A stretch of 64,000 nt of DNA from a virus (lineage: Duplodnaviria; Caudoviricetes), in the IMG/VR virus record IMGVR_UViG_3300037692_000137, positions 64,001 through 128,000 of that record, one strand, 5' to 3'. Both the position numbers and the translations under genes were made by a program. Each line of letters begins with the position of its first letter. The first letter of the stretch is position 1. Shown here in pieces: positions 444-49,892 of this stretch. The notes under the pieces are model-generated. The model was given only the letters and a program-made list of their open reading frames with translations. It was not told where the DNA came from and searched no databases.

Positions 444-1088
444 TTATGCTCCTCTATTTTCATTTATATTTATATTAATAACTCTGGTAGCTAGGGGTAT
501 ATCTAAAAAGGCTAGTAAGCTCGATTGAACTTCTTTATCATTTAGTACCTCCTCAGTATTAAATAGTACAAAATTATCTTTAAATGCCATAGCATATTCT
601 TCCGCTAAATTATAGTAGTCATCCCAGTAGTGTGCTATCGCATCTACTTTAGGTAAATTATATTTAGGGTAGCAATTATCGTATACGGAGTCAAGACGCC
701 ATAAGTTACTATCCCAATAAGTGCTGCTTTTATCAGTCCAATGGTTGCGCTCTTTTAGTCCAGTCTTAAAGTTAGCAGCAGTCTTTTTAATGTAACTAGC
801 AACCGTGTCTTTTTTAGTTCGTTTAAGACAAATAAATTTTGAATTGGGGTATTTGTCTAGTATGTATATAACATATGGTAGATGCCAAAAAGATACGTCG
901 CATGCAAAAGAACCGTTGGTCCTATTTTGCATAGATGTAATAGTCCTGTCTATATGGTTTTTACTGAACTGCCATGGGGTTATGACTAATTCATGTGTTG
1001 AAGTAAACCCATTCTGTAAACCTAGTAGTTCTTTAAGAGACACGGTACCACATCGGCCAGTACCAAGACCAAAAATAAGCTGCTTCAT
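444..1088 (-). CDS. Sulfotransferase-family protein (PAPS-binding P-loop fold)
   Basis: N-terminal IFGLGTGRCGTVSL resembles the 5'-PSB loop (GxxRSGT); FICLKRTKKDTVASY resembles the 3'-PB motif (LxRxxxDxxxS). Confidence 0.7.
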   Translation of the reverse strand: MKQLIFGLGTGRCGTVSLKELLGLQNGFTSTHELVITPWQFSKNHIDRTITSMQNRTNGSFACDVSFWHLPYVIYILDKYPNSKFICLKRTKKDTVASYIKKTAANFKTGLKERNHWTDKSSTYWDSNLWRLDSVYDNCYPKYNLPKVDAIAHYWDDYYNLAEEYAMAFKDNFVLFNTEEVLNDKEVQSSLLAFLDIPLATRVINININENRGA

Positions 1089-1861
1089 TATAATACCTCA
1101 TAATACTTTTTATATTTTTCAACAATACCGGCTGTTAGTACACGCTGTGTCCAGCCCCTATGTGGTGCCTCAGCTAAAGCATCCATAGTAACACCTAAAT
1201 CAATTAGACTTTTATTTCGAATGTCATGATCTTTCCAAAGGCGCTTAGCTAGTACACGTGTGGCCAGCCCTATTACAGGAAGTATTATATCACAATACTG
1301 TAATTTGTCAAGTATTTCCTCCATTTTATGATCTAAGGTGTAATAAGCATTCTCCACACCAGGAAAAGAAACAGTATGTGTAACGTTAAACATCTTCTCT
1401 ATAAGTTTATTATTACATAAAGGATCACCAGCTATCAGTAATACCTTTCTACCATAAAAAAAGCTATCAATAAATTTTACAAACCATTCTAGCTTATGCT
1501 CAAAAGCATACTGAAATATCAATGCGTGGTACCCCTCATCTGGATTGCCACGTAGTAATTTCCAAACATGTTTAAGTTGCCCATCTAAAAGCTGTTGTTG
1601 CACTCGTCTTTTTAGCCAAAAGTAGCTGCCACTACCATCCTCGAAAGAGCCTGCAGTACTAGACACGACATAGTTTAGATCAAATATTGTTAAAGACTCT
1701 CTTAGTTCTTGTCTTAGTTTAACACTATTTCTATGCCTTTGTTCATTAGGTGCCCCTTGTATAAGAGTTAAATCTCCATCACCGAATCTTATAAAGTAAA
1801 AAGGTGTGCCTTCATTTACCAATGTATCTAAATAATTACTTGTTTGTTCAATAGTTTTCAA
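1088..1861 (-). CDS. GT-D fold (DUF1792-like) glycosyltransferase
   Basis: FYFIRFGDGDL matches the RFGDGE signature; later KVLLIAG and LIDLGVTMDAL segments fit the family; located in a glycosyltransferase cluster. Confidence 0.65.
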   Translation of the reverse strand: MKTIEQTSNYLDTLVNEGTPFYFIRFGDGDLTLIQGAPNEQRHRNSVKLRQELRESLTIFDLNYVVSSTAGSFEDGSGSYFWLKRRVQQQLLDGQLKHVWKLLRGNPDEGYHALIFQYAFEHKLEWFVKFIDSFFYGRKVLLIAGDPLCNNKLIEKMFNVTHTVSFPGVENAYYTLDHKMEEILDKLQYCDIILPVIGLATRVLAKRLWKDHDIRNKSLIDLGVTMDALAEAPHRGWTQRVLTAGIVEKYKKYYEVL

Positions 1862-1873
1862 TTCAACTTCTCC

Positions 1874-2764
1874 TTATATTAAGGTGAGTTCTCCAGACCA
1901 GTTGTCTAATTGTAGTGCAAAATCTACATAGTCTTTATAGTGCGGATCTAATCTCATCATTTTAGTTGCGTTTAATGCAACCTCCCTTAAAGCCTCAACA
2001 CGATCCATAAATAGTTCCTGTTTAAACGGTAATTTACCGATCCTGTTTTGACCATAAAAGCCTATGTGTATTTGCCTATCACATGCCGGAGAATAAGACC
2101 TCAACCCTTCTTCAATAAAAGCTGTATCAATTAACCTATTAACAAGCCCGTCCCAACCAATATGTTGAAATAAATTTTTACGCTCTGGTCTATATTTAGA
2201 TCTTTTATCATTCCCATTGCGCTTATTAATAAGATGGATAATAGCTTCTCTATTAGCATAGTAATCATATGTGGCATAAGGTCTTACATATTTAGTAAAA
2301 AAATAGTTATCCATTAAGCAGGCAGGTGCTTCGAATAGATTTGTGGCTTGTATAGCATTTATATTGGTATTAGGCACTAATCTACGACTGGCATTAATAA
2401 CAGAAAAGTTACTATCCTTTAATAAGCTTAATGCTGTAGCCATATATGTAAAGTAGGTCTCATGTAGTAAACAATCATCCTCTATATTTAATACATAATC
2501 AGCCCCTTCAAAAAATACCTGCTTAAAACCCTCTAAAATGTTGCCCCAACCAAAATGTCTGAATGGTCTCATGACAATTGTTTTTTCAAAAGGGTAATAA
2601 TCGTTTATTAGCTCAACACATTTAGGATCAGCATTAAACTCTAATGCAAACAACGTACTATAGTTATCAGTATTTAGTCTTTTCCGCGACTTTATTTCGT
2701 ACTCCATAGACAGGTAAAGCATCTCTGGTCTATTATACACAGCTCTTAATATACGACCGTTCAT
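1874..2764 (-). CDS. GT-A fold glycosyltransferase-like protein
   Basis: N-terminal AVYNRPEML, NILEG segment, VLNIEDDC (DxD-like metal-binding motif), late HIGFYG. Confidence 0.6.
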   Translation of the reverse strand: MNGRILRAVYNRPEMLYLSMEYEIKSRKRLNTDNYSTLFALEFNADPKCVELINDYYPFEKTIVMRPFRHFGWGNILEGFKQVFFEGADYVLNIEDDCLLHETYFTYMATALSLLKDSNFSVINASRRLVPNTNINAIQATNLFEAPACLMDNYFFTKYVRPYATYDYYANREAIIHLINKRNGNDKRSKYRPERKNLFQHIGWDGLVNRLIDTAFIEEGLRSYSPACDRQIHIGFYGQNRIGKLPFKQELFMDRVEALREVALNATKMMRLDPHYKDYVDFALQLDNWSGELTLI

Positions 2765-2779
2765 TTATATACCCTCCCC

Positions 2780-3262
2780 TCATCTCTTATATACTTCCAA
2801 TACAAAGTTGGACCCCTCAAATTTGTGAGCTGTTGGTATTAAATTGGCCTCGGTACATAAAGCAGAAAGCCATTTGACATCAAACATAACAAAGTGAAAG
2901 TTACCTGGGTAATCTTGTCCACCAAACATATGATAAGATACAAACTTAGCATCACCTGTTTGTCTATAATATTCCACAGCCCATTGCATATTTGGTGTAC
3001 GAATTTCCATTATACCACCATGCTTTAATAGCCTGGCCCATTCTTTAAGTAGACCAATAGTTTTGCTTATTGGGAAATGTTCTATTATGTCGCTCGCAAG
3101 TATATAATCAAACCGCTCATTGGGCAGGTCTACTGCCTCAACATTACCTACTATATCAACACCTTCTAAGGGGCGTATATCTAAGTTTACACACGTATAC
3201 CCTTTGGGGTATTCTTTGTATATGCGGTTGCCACAACCAATGTTTAAAGTTTTTTTAGTCAT
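2780..3262 (-). CDS. Class I SAM-dependent methyltransferase (Methyltransf_11-like)
   Basis: LNIGCG motif I, VNLDI, FDYILASDIIEHF, LLKHGG. Confidence 0.85.
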   Translation of the reverse strand: MTKKTLNIGCGNRIYKEYPKGYTCVNLDIRPLEGVDIVGNVEAVDLPNERFDYILASDIIEHFPISKTIGLLKEWARLLKHGGIMEIRTPNMQWAVEYYRQTGDAKFVSYHMFGGQDYPGNFHFVMFDVKWLSALCTEANLIPTAHKFEGSNFVLEVYKR

Positions 3263-3268
3263 AATATA

Positions 3269-4393
3269 TTATTTTAATTCAAGTTCTTTAAGTAATTTTG
3301 TACCAATGACGGTTAAAGAAAAATTAGTATTTATATACTGCTTTAATCTTTGCCCTGTTGTTTTGGCGGCCTCTTTATTATCATAAACAAACTTCATTAA
3401 GTCAGCGCCATTTTTTACATCAGGCTCTGCCCAAAGTTGATCACCTCTATACCATGGACTCCATGGCATACCGTAAACAGGTGTTAGTGTGTAATTTACT
3501 AAATAGCTATTATCTTGTTTGGCATATTCTGTCACGCCGCCAAATCCTGTGATTACTACTGGATTACCGAAAGCACCAGCCATAAAAGGACCTATGCCAA
3601 AACCTTCTCCTCTATCTAATGAAACGTAGCAATCACCTCTTTCATGTAACCCATTAATTTCATCCTCGGTTAGCATGTCTGGTAGTAAATAAATGGGTGG
3701 GTATTTGTCCATAGGTGTCACAGCTTTTAGTTTTCTTATGGTAATTCTTATGGCTTCTTTTTCTTCCTCGCTGTAATCACTACGATAAGTTTTTAGTACA
3801 AGAGCCACGTCTTCATTATTCTGAAATGCATGCCAGTAAGCTTTTATAAGAGCGGTGGGGTGTTTTCTTTCAGTAAATTGAAATATACTATAAAACATGT
3901 ACGTATCCTTAGATACACCGCTTATGTCATAAGGAACTGCTGTCTCTACGTAACTTAAGTCCATACAATGTGGCACCACCCCTATAGGAATAGTAACACC
4001 ACTACGTTTAAATACCTCTTTATTCCACTCACAACCAACCAAAACTTTATCTACGTTATTATTTATATACATTTTCCAATCTGGGTGTAGTAAATCGGTC
4101 TCCCATATAGTGTAGCCAATGTTCTTCTTTCCCTTTTCCCTGTATCTAGACCAGAATTCCGGTGTTGTATGTATGATCACTGTATCATAGTCCACCTTAG
4201 TATCCATTAACTTTGTTAAAAGGACTCCATCAGCACCTAAGTCTGGTTTTGCTTTTTCAAATGAAATAGGATCTAATGTTATGGGCACACCAAGTGAATG
4301 GAGTGCCAGAATATTACCACGACAGGCTTTTGCATAACCTGAATTGTCTAGAATTGGCCCTATATATTTTATACCTTTAATAGTCATTTCCAT
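3269..4393 (-). CDS. GT-B fold (GT4-like) glycosyltransferase
   Basis: SGYAKA N-terminal loop, YTIWET, ERKHP, DCYVSLDRGEGFGIG...GNPVVITGFGG donor-binding motif. Confidence 0.85.
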   Translation of the reverse strand: MEMTIKGIKYIGPILDNSGYAKACRGNILALHSLGVPITLDPISFEKAKPDLGADGVLLTKLMDTKVDYDTVIIHTTPEFWSRYREKGKKNIGYTIWETDLLHPDWKMYINNNVDKVLVGCEWNKEVFKRSGVTIPIGVVPHCMDLSYVETAVPYDISGVSKDTYMFYSIFQFTERKHPTALIKAYWHAFQNNEDVALVLKTYRSDYSEEEKEAIRITIRKLKAVTPMDKYPPIYLLPDMLTEDEINGLHERGDCYVSLDRGEGFGIGPFMAGAFGNPVVITGFGGVTEYAKQDNSYLVNYTLTPVYGMPWSPWYRGDQLWAEPDVKNGADLMKFVYDNKEAAKTTGQRLKQYINTNFSLTVIGTKLLKELELK

Positions 4394-4400
4394 ACCTTAT

Positions 4401-4427
4401 AGAAAGTGCCTAATCCTGGTAGGCACT
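4401..4427 (-). terminator. Possible intrinsic terminator or regulatory hairpin
   Basis: Minus strand AGTGCCTA-CCAGGAT-TAGGCACT followed by TTCT; perfect 8-bp stem in an intergenic gap. Confidence 0.45.
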
Positions 4428-4466
4428 ATTAAATATAATATGATTCCAGGAAACCTGCTTTTATAC

Positions 4467-4730
4467 TTACATTTGTGGGCCAGAGGGCATAGGACCACTG
4501 GCACTATCAGCGCTAATATCAAAAGTTACTACCTCAGCTTCTACCATAACCAAACGACTCTCATCCAGCCAGGTCCAATCAGGGATGTCACCATTCTCAT
4601 TTACTCTCTTTGGTTGCAATCCGTAGTGGATGCACCCAGTAGAATAGAAAGCCACCACCATTACAACACCCTCTAAACCTGTTATTTTATCTTTTAATAA
4701 ATCGCCGTTAGTAAACTTAGCTTCTCGCAT
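4467..4730 (-). CDS. Hypothetical phage protein (SH3-like beta barrel possible)
   Basis: 87 aa ORF with GGAG RBS; GDLLKDKITGLEGVV...WLDESRL pattern typical of small phage beta-barrel proteins. Confidence 0.6.
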   Translation of the reverse strand: MREAKFTNGDLLKDKITGLEGVVMVVAFYSTGCIHYGLQPKRVNENGDIPDWTWLDESRLVMVEAEVVTFDISADSASGPMPSGPQM

Positions 4731-4784
4731 AATAATGCTCCTGTAAATCTAATTGTTAATGTTTTACGTACAACTCTGATTATT

Positions 4785-5060
4785 TTACTTCAGTGTGTCC
4801 TCTTTTATATCATCTTTCCAAAGATGATAAGTAAGGGGTGTCCTATTTTCTCGGGCGGAATAATGACTATACTCATCTTTGGTGTCCTTTATGAATTGTA
4901 AATACGCGTGATATTTACAACAAGCAAAACATCTATATTCAGCTTCTAAAATTGTCCATGCGCCTATTGATGTTAAGTAGAAAACAACATATGGGCGTAC
5001 AAAGTATACCTTAGTTTTAGTAAAAAACCTATTAAATAATTTAATTATTTTATCAAACAT
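4785..5060 (-). CDS. Hypothetical protein
   Basis: 91 aa ORF co-oriented with neighbours, GGGGG RBS-like run upstream. Confidence 0.55.
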   Translation of the reverse strand: MFDKIIKLFNRFFTKTKVYFVRPYVVFYLTSIGAWTILEAEYRCFACCKYHAYLQFIKDTKDEYSHYSARENRTPLTYHLWKDDIKEDTLK

Positions 5061-5091
5061 AATACCCCCATTTAAATACTGCTATAATATA

Positions 5092-5373
5092 TTATAGTGC
5101 TAAGCGGACGGTGGTTATATCTAACAAAATTTCACCATCGGAACCGCTGGTTTTTAATGCTTCACCAGTAACTTTGTATATTATAGCAAAATAATCGCAT
5201 AAAGTCAATACCTCTTTTGATACAGATAATCCAATCTCCGCTTCACCTGTTAAATGATTTATAGAGAGCTTTATATTACCTGAGGCTATTATGTTTGGCT
5301 CGTGGGGATTATTAGTTCCACGATAGTATATTTCAAACATTGCATACCTCGCTGGCTTAATAAATGCAATCAC
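5092..5373 (-). CDS. Hypothetical protein
   Basis: 93 aa ORF (GTG start; an internal ATG with GAGGT RBS may be the real start). Confidence 0.5.
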   Translation of the reverse strand: MIAFIKPARYAMFEIYYRGTNNPHEPNIIASGNIKLSINHLTGEAEIGLSVSKEVLTLCDYFAIIYKVTGEALKTSGSDGEILLDITTVRLAL

Positions 5374-5533
5374 AACTCATATAAGTATAACTATGTCTTT
5401 TAATAGTAGACTTAGGCTTAGGACGATCATAGATACGTTCTTTCCAATGATCCTCGTCGCCACAAACAGGACAGAGTGCGTGATGAAATAAATACCAATA
5501 GTGTTTATTTTGTTTTATTTTAGTAGCGTTCAT
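5357..5533 (-). CDS. Small Cys/His-containing hypothetical protein (58 aa, not in ORF track)
   Basis: GAGGT RBS then MNATKIKQNKHYWYLFHHALCPVCGDEDHWKERIYDRPKPKSTIKRHSYTYMSCDCIY*; fills the gap directly after thyX. Confidence 0.65.
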   Translation of the reverse strand: MNATKIKQNKHYWYLFHHALCPVCGDEDHWKERIYDRPKPKSTIKRHSYTYMSCDCIY

Positions 5534-6322
5534 CTAAATTACCTCTTTTTGCGTCTCTTTCCACAAGCCGTAGCCAGCAAGAACTTCATCCTTCGTTGGA
5601 TATTTACCACAACTACGTAGTTTATTCTCAGAGCAGTAACCCGCTTGTTGGCATTTTGGCCCAACATTTTTAAAAACTACGGGTAAAGCCTCTTTACATA
5701 GGGCCAGCATCTCATTAGCCACGATACGAATTTCCCATTGTGATAATGTACAACAACGCAGGCCAAAGAAGTGTATTAAACTAACACAATTTTTTGTAGT
5801 TACAAGTCTAGTAATAGCAGCATTGGGCATAAGGTAACGAGCGTCCTCGCTCTTAATATGCAACCCTTTAAGCTTATTATACGCTTGTTGTATATACTCT
5901 AATGTATCAACATAAATCTGTTTAGCTTCTTCATTTTTAGCTATAGAAGGTGGAATTACAAAATTATTGATATCAAACTCCCCATCATTAGCCACATACC
6001 TTTGGGACTGCTGGGAATAGCTAGCCATGCGGTGACGTACATGTTGATGGCTATCAGCACGTGATATACCATCAATAGCAAATGTAAATTTCACATGTTC
6101 GAGAACACTTGTGTGTCCTGATTTAAATAGATGGTTTATTAAACCCTCTATTTCTTTATCTGTACATAAGTGGCCGTCTTTATTATCAGTGATTGATACG
6201 AAGCCTTCCTCATCTTCTTGCCAGGAATCCCCAACCCAGCCCTCAGAATAGCACTGTCGGCCGGCAGCAAATAATAGTTTTTCAGCATTAGCGGAAACAT
6301 CCAGTAATTTAATTCTTAGCAT
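5534..6322 (-). CDS. thyX: FAD-dependent thymidylate synthase
   Basis: GHTSVLEH, RHRMASYSQQSQRY (RHRx7SxR ThyX signature), ARYLMPNA, LRCC...QWEIR; start re-assigned to ATG at 6322 with GAGGT RBS. Confidence 0.95.
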   Translation of the reverse strand: MLRIKLLDVSANAEKLLFAAGRQCYSEGWVGDSWQEDEEGFVSITDNKDGHLCTDKEIEGLINHLFKSGHTSVLEHVKFTFAIDGISRADSHQHVRHRMASYSQQSQRYVANDGEFDINNFVIPPSIAKNEEAKQIYVDTLEYIQQAYNKLKGLHIKSEDARYLMPNAAITRLVTTKNCVSLIHFFGLRCCTLSQWEIRIVANEMLALCKEALPVVFKNVGPKCQQAGYCSENKLRSCGKYPTKDEVLAGYGLWKETQKEVI

Positions 6323-6332
6323 ATTGTAACCT

Positions 6333-6497
6333 CTAGCCACCAAAACCACAGAATGGGCAAAATTTTAAACTTTTAGAATATAATCTTTTACAAAGATCGC
6401 ACGCGTACTCAGCATCGGTATTACTATAGGCCTTTTCAGTTTCTTTTTTATCAATTTGTGTTTGTTTTTGTTCCAATTTAATAGTAACCTCTTCCAT
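6333..6497 (-). CDS. Small zinc-ribbon protein (54 aa, not in ORF track)
   Basis: GGGAG RBS then MEEVTIKLEQKQTQIDKKETEKAYSNTDAEYACDLCKRLYSKSLKFCPFCGFGG*; two CxxC pairs. Confidence 0.7.
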   Translation of the reverse strand: MEEVTIKLEQKQTQIDKKETEKAYSNTDAEYACDLCKRLYSKSLKFCPFCGFGG

Positions 6498-6551: not shown

Positions 6552-8102
6552 TTAAAACGTCTCTGCCTTTATAACATTACTAGTTTGTTGTGCTGCTACT
6601 TCAACTGTCTTAATTTTTTGTGAAACTATAGACTTAGATAAAGCATCAAAAGTTTTAACCCAAATATTACCAACCGCTGTTTGCCAATCTAAGGTGCCTG
6701 TAACAAATTTATACGCCTGTTCCGCCTTAGTCGTTGCCTCTTCATAATTATTATACACATGTAGCATCTTGTCGGTTAGATCTTCTACATCGACTAGCGG
6801 GCGTCTTACCTCGTTGTCATAAGGAAGTACTGTCCATAGGCTGGGGTTAGTACCACTTTTTACAAGGTAGCCCACATCCTCAGTAATATTTTCTATCATT
6901 GCGGTGTTTCTAGGCATAATAACGGGTGTTCTAGTGGCCATGGCCTCTATCCAGGAAAGCCCCCAACCCTCACCAAGGCTAGCACTAATTACGCAGTCAA
7001 CACAATTATATAACATATTAACTATCTCTCTCGGATAGCCTTGGTTAGGTCCAAAGTTCTGAGGAAATATTATGTCCTCTGATAGACTAAAATCGTATGC
7101 TCTGCAAACCTCTGGTAGATTCCAACCTTGATCTTGTTTAGCCATATGTAAATACAGTAAAGTGTTTGGTTCCTTTTTACGTAACTCATAAAATGCTTGA
7201 ATAGTTCTAGGAATATCTTTACGTTGCTGATTTCTATTTAAATTCATGTAGATAAACTTATCTGAGTGACGGCCAAAATAGCGTTTTCTAAAATCAATTA
7301 CTTCCTCACTAGGCAGCGGTTTAAACTCACTAGTATTAACCCCATGAGGGATTACAGACATGTTGCCAACAATTGGATATACTTCTTGGCATAGCTTTCT
7401 TCCAAAATTAGCATAGGTAACTACCTCATCACAAAAACTAATGTTCTTTACCCATTCTGGTTTTGGTGTGCCGTCAATAGGAAAGTATACTATAGACTTA
7501 AAAGGTGTCTCCCTGTTCTTTTTAAGATGTGGTATTAGCTCAGGTAAAAAGTCTAATATGAAACTATCCTGCATAAAAAACAATATATCAAAATCCATTT
7601 TGGGAATCATGTTGACAATCTTTTTACGGCCGTACGGATCTCTTTCCGCATTATTACCAACGGGCCAAATCCTATACGGAAAATTATGAGGATCGCCCCA
7701 GTAGTTTATACCCAGTACTTCAATGTCATACCTGCCAGTTCTGTGTAGTGCCTCTAAAACATTACGACTAACGGTACCAAAACCTGTTGCCAAATATCTT
7801 CGCATAAGAACGTTACTTCTTATACCGCTCTATTAGAGCTGCTGCATGTTTCCATGCAAGTTGAGACTATATCATCGACCACTTGGGCCGCCACGCGCTT
7901 CCACTCACTTGAGTGTACTTCCTTTCGGAATAGTCGTTGTACCTTCCTCTATAAAGAGGCTTGGCTCAGGATTGTCCTCGACTTGACGTTAGGAGTTTCC
8001 CTGAATTCACGTAGTTATTCGATACACATTGCTGTGTAAAGCTGCACATTATTTACAGGTAGGTGTATCCATGTAACATAAAATTTTAGTCTTTCTTTCC
8101 AT
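6552..8102 (-). CDS. GT-B fold (GT4-like) glycosyltransferase, spliced: exon 1 8102-8055, exon 2 7790-6552 (428 aa)
   Basis: AAGGAG RBS and exon 1 MERKTKILCYMDTPTC join in frame to exon 2 ATGFGTVSRNV...; exon 2 has NRNQQRKD and SASLGEGWGLSWIEAMA GT4-type motifs. Confidence 0.88.
7791..8054 (-). ncRNA. Group I self-splicing intron (IA-type, P7.1/P7.2 present), 264 nt, no internal ORF
   Basis: 5' exon ends in U and intron ends in G. P AATTCAGGGAAAC (8007-7995), Q AATCCTGAGC (7973-7964), R GTACAACGACTA (7942-7931), S GATATAGTC (7873-7865). P7 GACTA/TAGTC; P3 CTACGTG/CGCGTGG; P1 CUGU/GCAG with U-G at the splice site; P2, P7.1 and P9 close GNRA tetraloops. Confidence 0.93.
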
Positions 8103-8111
8103 AAAATCTCC

Positions 8112-8801
8112 TTAATTGTTTAATAATCTTTCACGATTACACATTAAAATTGAATACCAATTCTTGTGCCAAGTTCTATCTGTATTAGCACGAGAATTGC
8201 AACTTCTACATATAGTTATTAAATTAATAGGTCTACAGTCTTCCTTATCATAATTTATATGATGTATGGTTAACTCTTTAGTTACGCCAAAGCAACAAGG
8301 ATTCCTACAAATATTGTTATCCCTGTATTTTATAGCTTCTTTGTAAACTTTATCTTTCCAAGCGTCACAATAAGGTTTTAATGATACACCTCCTTTCCAA
8401 CTAGGGTTACCTGAACCAGTAATTTTAATAGCATGACAAGTTGGACACCTATAACCACCATTATTCCAATCTGTCCATGTCATAGTGTGTACATGCCCTA
8501 AAGGGCATTTGTATTCTAATTTAGTTTTCTGATTAGTGTACTTATCTGATAGTAAGGTGTACCCTTCTTTCAGCATAGCTCTACATATTGTAATCAAAGT
8601 GCATTTTATATTACCAGCACATTTAGCACACCTATGCCCATTTAACCAGTTGCTCCAACTTATAGAGTGTGTATGTCCTTTAGGACAAATATAAGTTAGT
8701 TTTTGTAAATTGTTAATATAAACACTACTCAATAGTATGTAACCTTCCGCAGCAAAGGACTCTCGTACATACCCATAAGTTAAGCGTTTACCTGAAGACA
8801 T
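8112..8801 (-). mobile_element. Free-standing HNH homing endonuclease with two N-terminal zinc-binding repeats
   Basis: Two EGYxLLSxxYxNxxxKLxYxCPxGHxHxxxWxxWxxGxRCxxC repeats, NPSWKGG linker, C-terminal RDNNICRNPCC...LTIHHINYDKEDCRPINLITICRSCNSRAN HNH domain. Confidence 0.85.
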
Positions 8802-35878: not shown

Positions 35879-36179
35879 TTATGACCTTTATATTAAATTT
35901 GCCAGTAAACTCATCAATAGTATAATGTACTTTTGTAGCGCCCTCATAAAAACCTATTGTGCGCTGTTCCACTTGAAAAGAGGCTTGATTACCCGGTATC
36001 ATAGACGCACGAGTATTAATGAAGTAAGCCTCTTTATTTAATAGGTGCCAACTTCTACCATCATAGTGTAAAGACAAACATTTTATCTGCGTTTTTGGTA
36101 TCGAAGCCCAAGAAGATTGATTTTCATTTATAGTAGTACCATCCTGTAGTTCTACTTCCCAACCTCTTCTAATTGACAT
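35871..36179 (-). CDS. Hypothetical protein
   Basis: 102 aa, overlaps both neighbours in operon fashion. Confidence 0.65.
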   Translation of the reverse strand: MSIRRGWEVELQDGTTINENQSSWASIPKTQIKCLSLHYDGRSWHLLNKEAYFINTRASMIPGNQASFQVEQRTIGFYEGATKVHYTIDEFTGKFNIKVING

Positions 36180-37605
36180 GATTGGTTCCTTTTCCTTTAT
36201 TGTATTTAACGTATTTTAAATTACCACAATCCCATATACGTGTATAGCCTTGGGCTTTCCTTAGTTCCCATTCAGAAACATCTTTTGGTTCGTCTGCCTT
36301 TTTACGAAGAGAGAACCTGTTAAATCTTTCATAACATTGATCTTTGAGATACCAATAATTAGGTTTAGTGTATTGATCAAACTCAAATCCTAATTTAGTG
36401 TATAAAGCGCCATCAGACCATCTTCTATCGGCGTAAGAAAATAACTCTAACCACGAGTAATTGCGTTCAAAATATTTTAGTAATTTTGAAGCACCCCCTA
36501 CTATCTCAGTGTTAAGCTTAGAACAAAACCTATGTAATTCCCAAACCCCCTCTTTAATTATTTTGTGTCCTTTGGCTAGGGATGGCCTGGAAAAGGTCAT
36601 TACGGCAACTAACATATCATTATATAATAAACCAAGTTTAATTGATGACCCCGCACCATACCCTTGAAGATGATTTTCTTCACAAAACATACGTGCTTGC
36701 TTTGCGTTTATGGTGGTAACTTTGCAATTACGGGCGTATATTTTAATAAAAGCTGATCTATCTATATAACTCAACAACCGTGACCGACATATTGCATTTT
36801 TGTATCTAAACTCATCAGCAAAAACCGTTATGAGCTTATAATTGTTGTTTAAACAGCCCTCCAATTTTTTTAAATGGTAGCTTTCTCCTTTACCTGTTAG
36901 TTCTGAATGCCAATATAAACCACAATACTCTATGGCAATTTTTTTATCTGGGATTACTATGTCTAATTCTTTGGGTTTACAAATAAATCTATTATTAGTA
37001 CTTACTTCAGCATGCTCTGATATAAAGCCTCTTAAAGCCTCTTCTTCTTTTGATACACCGCTACTACCACAAGTAGCACAGCGACTGCCTTTACTTGACC
37101 AATTATCCCAGGTAAAACTATAAATGTGCCCATTCGGGCATTTAGTTGTTAAATGATCTTGACAACCAATATAGTTTTCTGACATTAAATTATAGCCTTC
37201 CTGCTCCAAAGATGTTTTAATATCTAAAATATTTTTTTTTATGTTGCCATTACATAAGTAGCACCTTCGTCCTTGAAGCCATGAAGAATAGCAAATTGTG
37301 TATTTGTGCCCATGTGGGCAAACATAGTCTAATTTTTGCTTATTGTTTAGGTATTCTTTTGTTAATAAGACATAACCTTCTAATGCAAAGGACTTACGTA
37401 TCTCATCTAATGTATGTATGGGCCTCCCATTACAATAGGGACATCTGGCATCTTTGTGCAGCCAGTCAGCCCAAGCTATACTGTGTATGTGGCCTTCTGG
37501 GCATTTGTAATTAAGTTTCTTTTTGTTACTAATGTAAGTGTCACTTAATAATGTGTATCCCTCATTTTCAAAAGCTTTTCTTACAACATCTATTGTATAA
37601 CGCAT
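36169..37605 (-). mobile_element. Hef-like putative homing endonuclease: three zinc repeats, Vsr-like PD-(D/E)XK domain, C-terminal GNAT-like domain
   Basis: EGYxLL...CPxGH...RC repeats; ELDIVIPDKKIAIEYCGLYWHS; NHLQG...WELHRFC...GGASKLL...SYADRRW...IWDCG. Confidence 0.8.
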
Positions 37606-49005: not shown

Positions 49006-49892
49006 TCAACACTTTAACTCTGAATAATTACAGCCAGGCAGTTTATGTGCTTTTTTATGGCAGTCTTTACAAAATGTTATACAATTATCAATATCTGCGG
49101 ATTCTATGGGATTGTTGATTACAGGGTCAATGTGGTGACAGTGTAATGCAACCTCAGTTTTTCCGCATTTTTGACAAGTCCAGTTGTCTCTTTCTAGTAC
49201 TAATTTTCTTAGTGCCGGTTGAACTTCACGGGAAGTAGCTGATTTAAACCCTTTTGGGTATGTATGCTGCTTATATATAGAACAAGCATTTTTGCATTGT
49301 TCTGAGCAGTAAAATCGCTGGTCCCCTCTAAGCAACCCAATCTATGATTTATTTCATCTATATTAGGTACAGTTACTTTATTGCAATACTCGCAATGTAC
49401 ACCTAACAGAATAAATCCAGCCTCATGGGGCACTTCCTTTATTTCATGGAAAGGAGCTAACCTTTTCATATAAGTGCTATATAAAGGTAAGCGTATTTTT
49501 CCAATACCCTCTTTCCAAGTTCCGCCGCAGATTCTGCATCTATGCCCTTGCTTCCAACGATCCCAAGTCATGGAATAGGTATGCCCGTTGTTACATATAA
49601 AAAGTAATTTTTGTTTAGCATTAATATATGTTTTTGTAAGTAGTTGGTAGCCCGCTTGCTCAAAAGATTTCTTTACTTCTTTAAAAGCAACTGGAGCGTT
49701 ATGTGCACAGTCTGGGCATCTATATCCAGTAACCCAATTTCCCCAGGTAATACTATTTTTATGCCCAAAAGGACATATGTAATGCATCTTGGTTTTAGCA
49801 TTTATATATGTCTTATCTATAAGGATATATCCCTCAACTTCAAAATTATTACGCACAAAACAATATTCTATTTTTTTAGGCATAGTAATCAC
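49006..49892 (-). pseudogene. Frameshifted zinc-repeat HNH homing endonuclease (ORFs 49892-49209 and 49335-49006)
   Basis: N-terminal ORF has two EGY/AGY...CxxGH...RC repeats; the -1 frame has LERDNWTCQKC...HCHHID...NCITFCKDCH HNH; one extra base in the GGGG run (49326-49323) gives a continuous LEGDQRFYCSEQC. Confidence 0.75.

What the first reader, a model, noticed from the sequence alone, without database searches (positions are those of the whole stretch)
7791..8054. Hidden ORF-less group I intron splitting a phage glycosyltransferase
Seen in sequence: a 16-codon exon (MERKTKILCYMDTPTC, with an AAGGAG RBS) runs straight into AAA-TAA, and the GT4 frame resumes 264 nt later at ATGFGTVSRN. 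The spacer carries all group I hallmarks: exon-terminal U paired to G in P1 (CUGU/GCAG), terminal G, P/Q/R/S core, P3 and P7 pairings, P7.1/P7.2, and P9-P9.2. The 3' exon start GCAACA can pair with the guide UGUGC (P10). Established knowledge: phage group I introns are mostly described in nucleotide-metabolism, DNA polymerase, lysis and virion genes. Inference: a glycosyltransferase is an unusual host gene. Insertion in its conserved N-terminal loop suggests the enzyme is strongly conserved and important in this phage lineage, and its expression depends on splicing. ORF callers miss the intron because an in-frame ATG inside P9.2 gives a false start (MRRYL).
Basis: partly seen in the sequence, partly recalled or inferred. 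Interest (0 to 1): 0.9.

Follow-up and report, generated by a model that had tools for sequence, protein, structure and literature searches.

The report
Self-splicing intron in phage glycosyltransferase
A 264-base group I (Twort-like, IA-type) self-splicing intron with no gene of its own interrupts a highly conserved glycosyltransferase gene of an uncultured 234-kb phage. It sits about 60 bases downstream of a free-standing HNH homing-endonuclease gene that may move it, so it is a real but fairly ordinary new member of a well-known class.

Summary

**The intron is real.**
- Rfam RF00028 hits 8064..7842 at 83.5 bits (E 9.5e-20).
- The remaining 51 nt down to 7791 hold P9.1, P9.2 and the terminal G.

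**The splice junction is settled by homology.**
- Splicing at TGT|GCA gives MERKTKILCYMDTPTC|ATGFGTVSRN.
- Over 100 intronless homologues carry the same motif uninterrupted (…YCDSPTCATGFGTVSRN).

**The RNA structure is maintained.**
- Two other phage lineages carry the same intron at the same site.
- Across the three copies, 98% of cells are paired and 11 pairs show compensatory double changes.
- Exon position -4, which pairs with the guide, is C in 3/3 intron-bearing alleles and 0/13 intronless ones.

**The enzyme needs splicing.** Exon 1 encodes strand β1 of the GT-B fold, and the intron sits in the β1–α1 loop.

**Relatives and mobility.**
- The closest intron relatives are Staphylococcus phage (Twort orf142-type) and terminase/DNA polymerase introns.
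- A free-standing HNH gene (8801..8112) lies directly upstream.
- In relatives this gene occurs with the intron, as a decayed remnant with the intron, or without the intron. The intron was never seen without it.
- This favours mobilisation in trans; strict collaborative homing is unproven.
- No RNA evidence was available.

Verdict: new member of a known kind, moderate interest.

The parts
8112..8801 (-). Free-standing HNH homing-endonuclease gene (229 aa), with two CapR-like zinc-finger repeats and a C-terminal HNH domain. Its stop codon (8114..8112) overlaps the glycosyltransferase RBS.
   Evidence: Pfam CapR 7.3e-6 and HNH_3 1.4e-3. PHROG 559 and 681, 'HNH endonuclease', at 4e-17 and 2e-18. 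Orthologues sit at the same PD-(D/E)XK|GT junction in L003, L112, L126 and L127. It is absent from L005, L104 and L106.
8108..8113 (-). Shine-Dalgarno AAGGAG, 5 nt before the exon 1 ATG.
   Evidence: Read from the sequence.
8055..8102 (-). Exon 1 of the GT4 glycosyltransferase: 16 codons, MERKTKILCYMDTPTC. It encodes strand β1. Its last four bases, CUGU, form the exon half of P1.
   Evidence: Homologues have K(I/V)L.Y.D(S/T)P(T/S)C contiguous with ATGFG. β1 spans residues 5-12 in the model of the intronless orthologue P0003.
7791..8054 (-). ORF-less group I intron, 264 nt, IA-type. Helices in order: P1, P2, P3, P4, P5, P6, P7, P7.1, P7.2, P8, P9, P9.1, P9.2, then the terminal G at 7791.
   Evidence: RF00028 at 83.5 bits, E 9.5e-20. 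The minimum-energy fold recovers all helices. Across three alleles, 11 pairs show compensatory changes and 98.2% of cells are paired.
7842..8064 (-). Extent of the Rfam Intron_gpI match, from the 5' half of P1 in exon 1 through P9.
7902..7930 (-). P7.1 (UUCCGAAAGGAA) and P7.2 (CACUCAAGUGAGUG), inserted between the P7 5' strand and the P3 3' strand. This is the subgroup IA hallmark.
   Evidence: A 31-nt insertion relative to the Rfam consensus. Helices seen. There is a compensatory UA-to-CG change in P7.2.
7802..7839 (-). The peripheral hairpins P9.1 and P9.2. P9.2 contains the spurious in-frame ATG (7805..7803) that ORF callers use as a start (MRRYL).
   Evidence: There is a compensatory GC-to-AU change in P9.2.
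6552..7790 (-). Exon 2 of the GT4 glycosyltransferase: 412 codons plus the stop, beginning ATGFGTVSRN.
   Evidence: Pfam Glycos_transf_1 7.4e-11. 942 homologues found. The fold of the orthologue matches GT-B/GT4 enzymes 3OY2, MshA and BshA.

Best explanation
**What it is.** A functional, endonuclease-less group I intron of the phage IA (Twort-like) type interrupts the GT4 glycosyltransferase gene after codon 16. The gene belongs to an uncultured phage of about 234 kb.

**How it works.**
- The primary transcript carries exon 1, whose translation would stop two codons into the intron at AAA UAA.
- The intron folds so that exon CUGU pairs with the guide GCAG, placing a U.G wobble at the 5' splice site.
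- Exogenous G attacks after U8055.
- The freed exon then attacks after the terminal G at 7791, helped by a 3-bp P10.
- The product is a 428-aa enzyme in which exon 1 supplies strand β1 of the N-terminal Rossmann domain.
- The glycosyltransferase is therefore made only from spliced RNA.

**How it probably spreads.** The intron has no mobility gene. It lies 57 nt downstream of a free-standing HNH homing-endonuclease gene that specifically occupies the junction upstream of this glycosyltransferase. Its spread or persistence is most likely due to co-conversion when that endonuclease cuts genomes lacking it (homing in trans).

**Shown versus inferred.**
- Shown: intron identity, the exact junction, maintenance of the RNA structure, and the pattern of co-occurrence with the HNH gene.
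- Inferred: splicing in vivo and endonuclease-driven mobility. I put the mobility step at about 50%.
For: **Intron identity**
- RF00028 matches the full model at 83.5 bits. The same intron at the same site scores 83 and 106 bits in two other lineages.

**Splice junction**
- The spliced N-terminus matches the contiguous motif in more than 100 homologues, for example P0003 MNRKLRILCYMDSPTCATGFG.
- DNA alignment with the intronless L005 places the gap exactly between TGT and GCN.

**RNA structure is maintained**
- On the three alleles, 98.2% of cells are paired and 11 pairs have changes on both sides. Slid controls give 0-1 such pairs, and 0/500 shuffles reach the observed value.
- Exon position -4, which pairs with the guide G, is C in 3/3 intron-bearing alleles. 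It is never C in 13 intronless lineages.
- Exon 1 stays coding across the three alleles. In the conserved KILCYMDTPTC codons, the window and L002 differ by four synonymous changes and one conservative T-to-S change.

**Splicing is needed for the enzyme**
- In the model of the intronless orthologue, β1 is residues 5-12, the loop is 13-18 and α1 is 19-33.

**Mobility**
- The GT tree puts intron-bearing L003 beside intronless P0003 (98/86) and L104 (99/95). Intron presence therefore needs at least 2 changes.
- HNH orthologues sit at the same junction.
- The HNH gene has decayed to a 37-aa stub plus an untranslatable domain in the L002 lineage, while the intron there stays intact.
- All three intron lineages carry the endonuclease gene or its remnant.
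- Trans homing by an adjacent free-standing HNH is experimentally established for T4 mobE and the nrdB intron (PMC2790892).
Against: **Splicing**
- There is no RNA evidence. The only cDNA-labelled runs that hold the region behave like DNA, and their contigs show the unspliced form plus an intronless allele of a relative.
- Only three intron alleles exist, and two of them are sisters, so the covariation and -4 counts rest on few independent lineages.

**Mobility**
- At least three lineages (L112, L126, L127) carry the HNH gene with an intronless glycosyltransferase that has a canonical PTC|ATGF site. The endonuclease therefore does not need the intron.
- The HNH proteins of the two independent intron lineages are only 56% identical. 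The window's HNH is closer (62%) to one beside an intronless gene. This argues against recent transfer of HNH and intron together as one cassette.
Confidence: 0.9

Rival explanations
1. Strict collaborative homing. [quoted passage not shown] The intron protects its own genome by splitting that target, as with F-CphI and the psbA intron of cyanophage S-PM2.
For: A free-standing endonuclease gene lies directly beside an ORF-less intron. The insertion site is in the most conserved DNA stretch of the gene, which is the kind of site homing endonucleases prefer (PMC3984707). The intron was found only in loci that have the endonuclease gene or its remnant. Exon 1, which lies between the two elements, is more alike between the window and L003 (89.6%) than between L003 and its closer relative L005 (77%).
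Against: L112, L126 and L127 carry an orthologous HNH gene next to an intronless glycosyltransferase with the normal PTC|ATGF(G/S/A) site. Those genomes would be self-cleaving unless synonymous differences protect them. No cleavage data exist. The exon 1 comparison rests on only 48 nt.
Confidence: 0.25
2. The intron is an immobile passenger. It entered once in the ancestor of this small clade and was later lost precisely in some lineages. Its position beside the HNH gene is coincidental, because the PD-(D/E)XK|GT junction is simply a hotspot for endonuclease genes.
For: The HNH gene, and a variant with the same repeats fused to a PD-(D/E)XK-like nuclease in L111, often occupies this junction without any intron. 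HNH proteins of the two intron lineages are only 56% identical. All intron-bearing alleles fall in one five-member clade with 100/100 support.
Against: This needs two independent precise losses (L104 and P0003) inside a tight clade. Both intronless clade members also lack the HNH gene, so the two elements were lost or gained together. Co-conversion over such short distances is known to happen (PMC2790892).
Confidence: 0.3
3. The intron is dead. The glycosyltransferase is either a pseudogene or is made as a truncated protein from the MRRYL ATG.
For: ORF callers find a 417-aa ORF from ATG 7805. There are no RNA data.
Against: All core helices are intact with compensatory changes. The ATG is not conserved as a start: in L002 and L003 the callers had to use TTG. 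There is no RBS inside P9.2. A truncated product would lack β1. Exon 1 is kept as coding sequence in three lineages. Exon 2 is 84-90% conserved with no disruptions.
Confidence: 0.03
4. Assembly artefact or chimera that joins an unrelated intron to the gene.
For: The window comes from a metagenomic assembly.
Against: The same arrangement appears in independent assemblies from JGI, ENA and IMG/VR (L002, L003/L004, L006, L007, L053). Logan contigs of other runs also match both exon-intron boundaries exactly: X4 covers 7718-7904 and X3 covers 7920-8070, each with zero mismatches.
Confidence: 0.01

Closest known systems
Staphylococcus phage Twort orf142 group I introns (GenBank AF132670; subgroup IA2 from my own knowledge, Landthaler & Shub 1999) and the related introns of Staphylococcus Herelleviridae phages
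   Same: They share 72-79% nucleotide identity over about 200 of the 264 nt. The matched Twort region lies in a CDS annotated 'contains group 1 introns' and joined from 4 pieces. They share the same architecture, with P7.1/P7.2 between P7 and P3', and they are small and ORF-less.
   Different: The host gene differs: a tail-module protein in Twort versus a glycosyltransferase here. The host phage differs: an uncultured 234-kb phage from sediment or wastewater versus a Staphylococcus myovirus. Self-splicing has not been tested here.
Group I introns in the terminase large subunit (Pseudomonas KIL phages, Aeromonas phiA009/phiA019), DNA polymerase (Pseudoalteromonas pYD6-A) and endolysin (Staphylococcus StB12) genes
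   Same: The ribozyme core is homologous, at 68-78% identity over 180-215 nt. All are inserted in conserved phage protein-coding genes.
   Different: Those host genes fall in the usual categories of replication, packaging and lysis. A glycan-synthesis enzyme does not appear among the hits, nor in the literature searched.
F-CphI with the psbA intron of cyanophage S-PM2: 'collaborative homing' (Zeng, Bonocora & Shub 2009, as described in PMC6083498 and PMC3984707)
   Same: A free-standing homing-endonuclease gene lies directly beside a gene that carries an endonuclease-less group I intron.
   Different: F-CphI has an Endo VII-type catalytic motif, whereas this enzyme is HNH with CapR-like repeats. 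F-CphI has been shown to cut at the intron insertion site and to be blocked by the intron. Here the target is unknown, and HNH-bearing relatives without the intron exist.
T4 mobE with the nrdB intron (defunct I-TevIII): 'trans homing' (Wilson & Edgell 2009, PMC2790892)
   Same: A free-standing HNH-family endonuclease gene sits just upstream of the 5' end of the intron-bearing gene. The intron cannot move by itself and is thought to be carried along by co-conversion. One lineage here (L002) shows the endonuclease decaying, and T4 also has a defunct endonuclease.
   Different: In T4 the defunct endonuclease ORF lies inside the intron, whereas this intron never shows an ORF. MobE nicking and co-conversion were demonstrated by phage crosses; here there is only comparative evidence.

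Membership tests
Group I catalytic intron (Rfam RF00028) | Covariance-model score above the curated gathering threshold over the full model | tested here: met
   83.5 bits against a threshold of 50, model positions 1-253, E 9.5e-20. The other alleles score 83 and 106 bits.
Group I catalytic intron (Rfam RF00028) | 5' splice site after a U that forms a U.G wobble in P1 with the internal guide sequence, and an intron ending in G | tested here: met
   CUGU|A pairs with UGCAG. The U.G pair at alignment columns 10/20 is invariant in the three alleles. The intron ends ...AUUUG at 7791.
Group I catalytic intron (Rfam RF00028) | Conserved core helices P3-P8, including the P3/P7 pseudoknot, supported by covariation | tested here: met
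   All helices are present. Eleven pairs show compensatory changes, in P2, P6, P7.2, P8, P9 and P9.2. P7 (GACUA/UAGUC) is invariant. 98.2% of cells are paired, against 28-49% in the slid controls.
Group I catalytic intron (Rfam RF00028) | Removal restores a continuous reading frame that matches intronless homologues | tested here: met
   PTC|ATGFG is contiguous in more than 100 homologues and in the L005 DNA.
Group I catalytic intron (Rfam RF00028) | Self-splicing with a guanosine cofactor, in vitro or in vivo | not testable with these tools
   No genuine RNA run holds the locus. Contigs from cDNA-labelled runs show the unspliced form and a relative's intronless allele only.
Subgroup IA (IA2, Twort/T4-like phage introns) | Extra P7.1 and P7.2 hairpins between the P7 5' strand and the P3 3' strand (class features as listed in PMC3984707) | tested here: met
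   The 31-nt insertion at that place folds into two hairpins. P7.2 has a compensatory change.
Subgroup IA (IA2, Twort/T4-like phage introns) | Sequence kinship with established IA2 members | tested here: met
   72% identity over nt 1-209 to the Twort orf142 intron, and 76-79% to other Staphylococcus phage introns. The assignment of Twort to IA2 rests on my own knowledge, not on a tool.
Subgroup IA (IA2, Twort/T4-like phage introns) | Diagnostic P7:P7' sequence signature that separates IA1, IA2 and IA3 | not tested
   No subgroup-specific models were available, so the IA2 versus IA1/IA3 call is provisional.
Collaborative homing pair (F-CphI/psbA type) | A free-standing endonuclease gene adjacent to a gene with an endonuclease-less intron | tested here: met
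   The HNH gene is at 8801..8112 and the intron at 8054..7791. The same arrangement is seen in L003.
Collaborative homing pair (F-CphI/psbA type) | The endonuclease cleaves intronless alleles at the intron insertion site | not testable with these tools
   This needs a cleavage assay.
Collaborative homing pair (F-CphI/psbA type) | The intron is what protects the endonuclease-bearing genome, so endonuclease-bearing genomes should carry the intron or an altered site | tested here: inconclusive
   L112, L126 and L127 have the HNH gene with an intronless glycosyltransferase and a normal PTC|ATGF site. They differ only at synonymous or nearby positions.
GT4 / GT-B glycosyltransferase (host gene) | Glycos_transf_1 domain and a two-Rossmann-domain GT-B fold | tested here: met
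   Pfam PF00534 at 7.4e-11, above its cut-off. The model of orthologue P0003 has pLDDT 85 and matches 3OY2, MshA, BshA and PimA/PimB' with TM 0.65-0.79.

The most novel reading that the evidence does not exclude
This locus family may be a natural series that captures the stages proposed for the birth of mobile group I introns. The stages seen are:
- an empty site (L005, L104);
- a free-standing HNH gene alone (L112, L126, L127);
- the HNH gene plus an ORF-less intron 57 nt away (window, L003);
- a decayed HNH gene with the intron surviving (L002 lineage);
- a variant with the same DNA-binding repeats fused to a different nuclease (L111).

[quoted passage not shown] That would make this a third, independent and unusually well-sampled case of collaborative homing, and it would be in a glycan-synthesis gene.
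Probability: 0.25. Interest if true: 0.6.

Novelty: new member of a known kind. Interest (0 to 1): 0.42.

Why it matters
**Annotation.** Three independent annotation pipelines truncated this gene. Phage glycosyltransferases called without their β1 strand may therefore hide introns, and the 16-codon first exon is easy to miss.

**Biology.**
- It adds a glycan-synthesis enzyme to the list of phage genes invaded by group I introns, which is otherwise dominated by nucleotide metabolism, replication, packaging, lysis and virion genes.
- The insertion site marks the invariant CATGFG loop as the most constrained DNA in this very widespread phage enzyme family, which has 942 homologues.

**Mobile elements.** The set of related loci offers a comparative system to test how endonuclease-less introns persist. 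The loci range from no element, to endonuclease only, to endonuclease plus intron, to decayed endonuclease plus intron.

None of this changes current concepts. It extends them.

Tried and rejected
**RNA evidence for splicing.**
- Two run searches and one read-laying found no true RNA holder.
- The wastewater 'RNA-Seq cDNA' runs behave like DNA, and mostly hold other organisms' intron cores.
- The single 'joint' (7790 to 8068, with 13 other letters between) is an intronless allele of a relative (…GAC ACG CCA ACA TGC|GCA…). It is not a spliced transcript of this phage.

**Metagenome scan with a 17-mer.** It returned 96 stretches, but only one (L053) was a real copy. The rest are chance matches.

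**Perfect intron-HNH co-occurrence.** This looked true for the first six loci. It was rejected after L112, L126 and L127 showed the HNH gene beside intronless genes.

**A cassette of HNH, exon 1 and intron transferred together recently.** This is weakened by the 56% identity between the HNH proteins of the window and L003.

**A second intron in the 281-nt gap after the HNH homologue in L129.** This is unresolved, because that stretch is masked with N and Rfam finds nothing.

**Alternative 3' splice sites.** G7842, where the Rfam model ends, gives an immediate stop (CAG CTC TAA). G7803, after the ATG, would insert RRYL, which no homologue has.

**P0002 (412 aa, 'MDSPTC...').** It looked truncated but is a mis-called start. 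The true start gives MDRRLRILCYMDSPTC with no intron.
Full report
**1. The observation**

All features lie on the minus strand.
- AAGGAG is at 8113..8108, followed five bases later by ATG at 8102.
- A 16-codon frame (MERKTKILCYMDTPTC) ends at 8055 and runs in frame into AAA TAA.
- The glycosyltransferase frame resumes at 7790 with GCA ACA GGT TTT GGT (ATGFG) and stays open to 6552.
- The intervening 264 nt (8054..7791) start with A and end with G.
- The ORF list shows the false 417-aa ORF that starts at ATG 7805 (MRRYL).

**2. Is it a group I intron?**

- Rfam's Intron_gpI model matches 8064..7842(-) over its whole length, at 83.5 bits against a gathering score of 50, E 9.5e-20.
- It is the only Rfam family found in the 64-kb window, and the only group I hit in the 234-kb virus record that holds the window.
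- The match begins 10 nt inside exon 1, because P1 includes the exon's last bases. It ends after P9.
- The 51 nt beyond it fold into two further hairpins, P9.1 and P9.2, followed by GAUAUUUG.
- The Rfam alignment places the conserved splice-site U opposite the guide G. This fixes the 5' splice site after U8055.
- A 31-nt insertion between the P7 5' strand and the P3 3' strand folds into P7.1 and P7.2, the hallmark of subgroup IA (class features as in PMC3984707).
- The minimum-energy fold recovers every helix, with a z-score of -3.2 against dinucleotide shuffles.

**3. The junction**

- A search with exon 2 found 942 homologues.
- Of the 120 listed, essentially all full-length ones read …K(I/V)L.Y.D(S/T)P(T/S)C-ATGFGTVSRN… without interruption.
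- The nearest intronless one, P0003, begins MNRKLRILCYMDSPTCATGFG, against MERKTKILCYMDTPTC|ATGFG for the spliced window gene.
- DNA alignment with the intronless locus L005 puts the gap exactly between TGT and GCN.
- Other candidate 3' sites fail. G7842 gives a stop, and G7803 would add RRYL, which no homologue has.
- The spliced protein is 428 aa.

**4. Other copies and covariation**

- Two listed homologues were truncated at the same place, P0001 ('LATGF…') and P0004 ('MATGFG…').
- Their contigs carry the same intron at the same codon boundary:
  - L002, 264 nt, Rfam 83 bits;
  - L003/L004, 265 nt, Rfam 106 bits.
- Exact-pattern scans of IMG/VR and JGI metagenomes added only further copies of the L002 type.
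- On the three-allele alignment, with the structure taken from the window's fold plus P7:
  - 98.2% of cells form standard pairs;
  - 11 pairs change on both sides, in P2, P6, P7.2, P8, P9 and P9.2;
  - slid controls give 0-1 such pairs, and 0/500 shuffles reach the observed values.
- With only three sequences, two of them sisters, this is a modest sample, but every change is in the direction expected for a maintained ribozyme.
- Exon position -4 is the third base of the Thr/Ser codon and pairs with the guide G. It is C in all three intron alleles and never C in 13 intronless lineages.
- All three alleles keep AAA UAA just inside the intron.

**5. Why splicing is needed**

- An AlphaFold model of the intronless orthologue P0003 (pLDDT 85, pTM 0.84) shows β1 at residues 5-12, a loop at 13-18 and α1 at 19-33.
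- The fold matches GT-B/GT4 enzymes: chlorovirus NY2A GT 3OY2, MshA, BshA and PimA.
- The intron therefore sits in the β1-α1 loop of the N-terminal Rossmann domain, and exon 1 supplies β1.
- Residues C16 to V23 around the junction are invariant in 32 homologues.
- A product from MRRYL would lack β1. That ATG is also not conserved: the gene callers had to use TTG starts in L002 and L003.
- Dependence on splicing is an inference from these facts. No RNA data could be obtained.

**6. Relatives of the intron**

- blastn finds 311 phage records.
- The best matches are Staphylococcus phage introns at 76-79% identity over about 200 nt. Twort orf142 matches at 72% over nt 1-209, and that record is annotated 'contains group 1 introns'.
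- Other matches are introns in terminase (Pseudomonas KIL, Aeromonas phiA009), DNA polymerase (Pseudoalteromonas pYD6-A) and endolysin genes.
- The ribozyme itself is thus a new member of a familiar phage family.
- No glycosyltransferase host appears among these hits or in a full-text literature search.

**7. The neighbourhood**

- The operon on the minus strand reads: DnaJ, RuvC, PD-(D/E)XK nuclease, HNH, GT4 (with the intron), ThyX, a second GT-B-like protein, a methyltransferase, a GT-D protein and a sulfotransferase.
- The 229-aa ORF at 8801..8112 has two CapR-like zinc-finger repeats and an HNH domain. It matches the PHROG 'HNH endonuclease' families 559 and 681.
- Its stop codon overlaps the glycosyltransferase RBS.

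**8. Endonuclease and intron across relatives**

| State of the PD-(D/E)XK\|GT junction | Loci |
|---|---|
| No endonuclease gene, no intron (junction 13-15 nt) | L005, L104 |
| No endonuclease gene, no intron | L106 and six IMG/VR loci |
| HNH gene plus intron | window; L003 (298 aa, three repeats, 56% identical) |
| Intron plus decayed HNH | L002 lineage |
| HNH gene without intron | L112 (46% identical), L126 (62%), L127/L128 (58%) |
| Four CapR-like repeats fused to a PD-(D/E)XK-like REase_MTES_1575 domain, no intron | L111 |

- In the L002 lineage about 430 nt of the HNH gene's 5' part are deleted. This leaves a 37-aa stub and an HNH-coding remnant with no start codon.
- The three endonuclease-only lineages all have a normal PTC|ATGF site.
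- The endonuclease is therefore an independent, site-specific free-standing element.
- The intron was seen only where the endonuclease is or was present (3 of 3 lineages).

**9. History**

- The GT tree places {window, L002} as sister to {L104, {L003, P0003}} with high support (100/100, 99/95, 98/86). Intron presence thus needs at least two gains or losses.
- The flanking PD-(D/E)XK gene agrees: L003 is 78.5% identical to L005 but only 71% to the window.
- Both intronless members of the clade also lack the HNH gene.
- Between the window and L003, identity is 86-87% for the intron, 71-72% for exon 2 and 89.6% for exon 1. Structural constraint on the intron and the short exon make this only suggestive.
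- The HNH proteins of the window and L003 are just 56% identical, and the window's is nearer to one beside an intronless gene (62%). This argues against a recent joint transfer.

**10. Mechanism and comparison**

- The arrangement resembles two described systems:
  - collaborative homing (F-CphI with the psbA intron, where the endonuclease cuts at the insertion site and the intron blocks self-cleavage; PMC6083498, PMC3984707);
  - trans homing (T4 MobE, an HNH enzyme encoded just upstream of nrdB, which nicks in its 5' region and carries the immobile intron along by co-conversion; PMC2790892).
- Endonuclease-bearing, intronless relatives with a normal site exist here, so the MobE-like reading fits better. 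I put it at about 50%.
- Strict collaborative homing remains possible (about 25%).
- A purely passive intron in an endonuclease hotspot cannot be excluded (about 30%).
- These three readings concern mobility only. The identity and junction of the intron are secure.

**11. Verdict**

- It is a new member of a known kind: an IA-type phage intron in an unusual host gene, next to a free-standing HNH gene.
- Interest is moderate. It matters mainly as an annotation lesson and as a well-sampled comparative series for intron-endonuclease evolution.
I tested it, and found it only partly borne out.

Noticed in passing
L111:1338-2405: At the same PD-(D/E)XK|GT junction, a relative carries a 355-aa protein with four CapR-like repeats fused to a REase_MTES_1575-like (PD-(D/E)XK) domain instead of HNH. 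The Pfam score of 26.9 bits is below the cut-off. It looks like a nuclease-domain swap on a shared DNA-binding module.
   Followed up: partly
window 36169-37605 (-), window 49209-49892 (-), and genome position about 148 kb (outside the window): Three further ORFs in the same genome share the CapR-like repeat module of the HNH protein (45-50% identity over the repeats), but no HNH domain was detected. They may be other free-standing endonucleases or DNA-binding proteins.
   Followed up: partly
L003:5282-7156: In the intron-bearing relative, ThyX is 624 aa with precomputed Pfam hits Thy1, LAGLIDADG_3 (faint) and Thy1. This suggests an intein or a similar insertion in thyX. The window's ThyX (5534..6349) is a normal 271 aa.
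   Followed up: no
L129:114-1832 and L129:3814-5283: A more distant relative has an intein-containing protein (Intein_splicing). It also has a 489-aa glycosyltransferase with an internal segment that looks like a mini-intein, and two CapR/HNH genes within 6 kb. The 281-nt gap after the first HNH gene is masked with N, so a possible intron there could not be checked.
   Followed up: partly
window 444-6349 (-): Downstream of the split gene lie ThyX, a second GT-B-like protein, a SAM methyltransferase, a GT-D-fold protein and a sulfotransferase.
   Followed up: partly
L127:5068-5873 versus window 5534-6349: Downstream of the glycosyltransferase, some relatives carry ThyA (Thymidylat_synt) where this phage has ThyX. 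This is a non-orthologous replacement at a conserved position.
   Followed up: no
L106:2504-2998: One relative has a 164-aa radical-SAM (Fer4_12/Radical_SAM) ORF at the PD-(D/E)XK|GT junction instead of an endonuclease gene. It is further evidence that this junction is an insertion hotspot.
   Followed up: no
window 7874-7996: Wastewater runs labelled RNA-Seq hold very many contigs that match only the intron core at 85-95% identity, with unrelated flanks. Related group I introns are therefore abundant and diverse in those samples.
   Followed up: no
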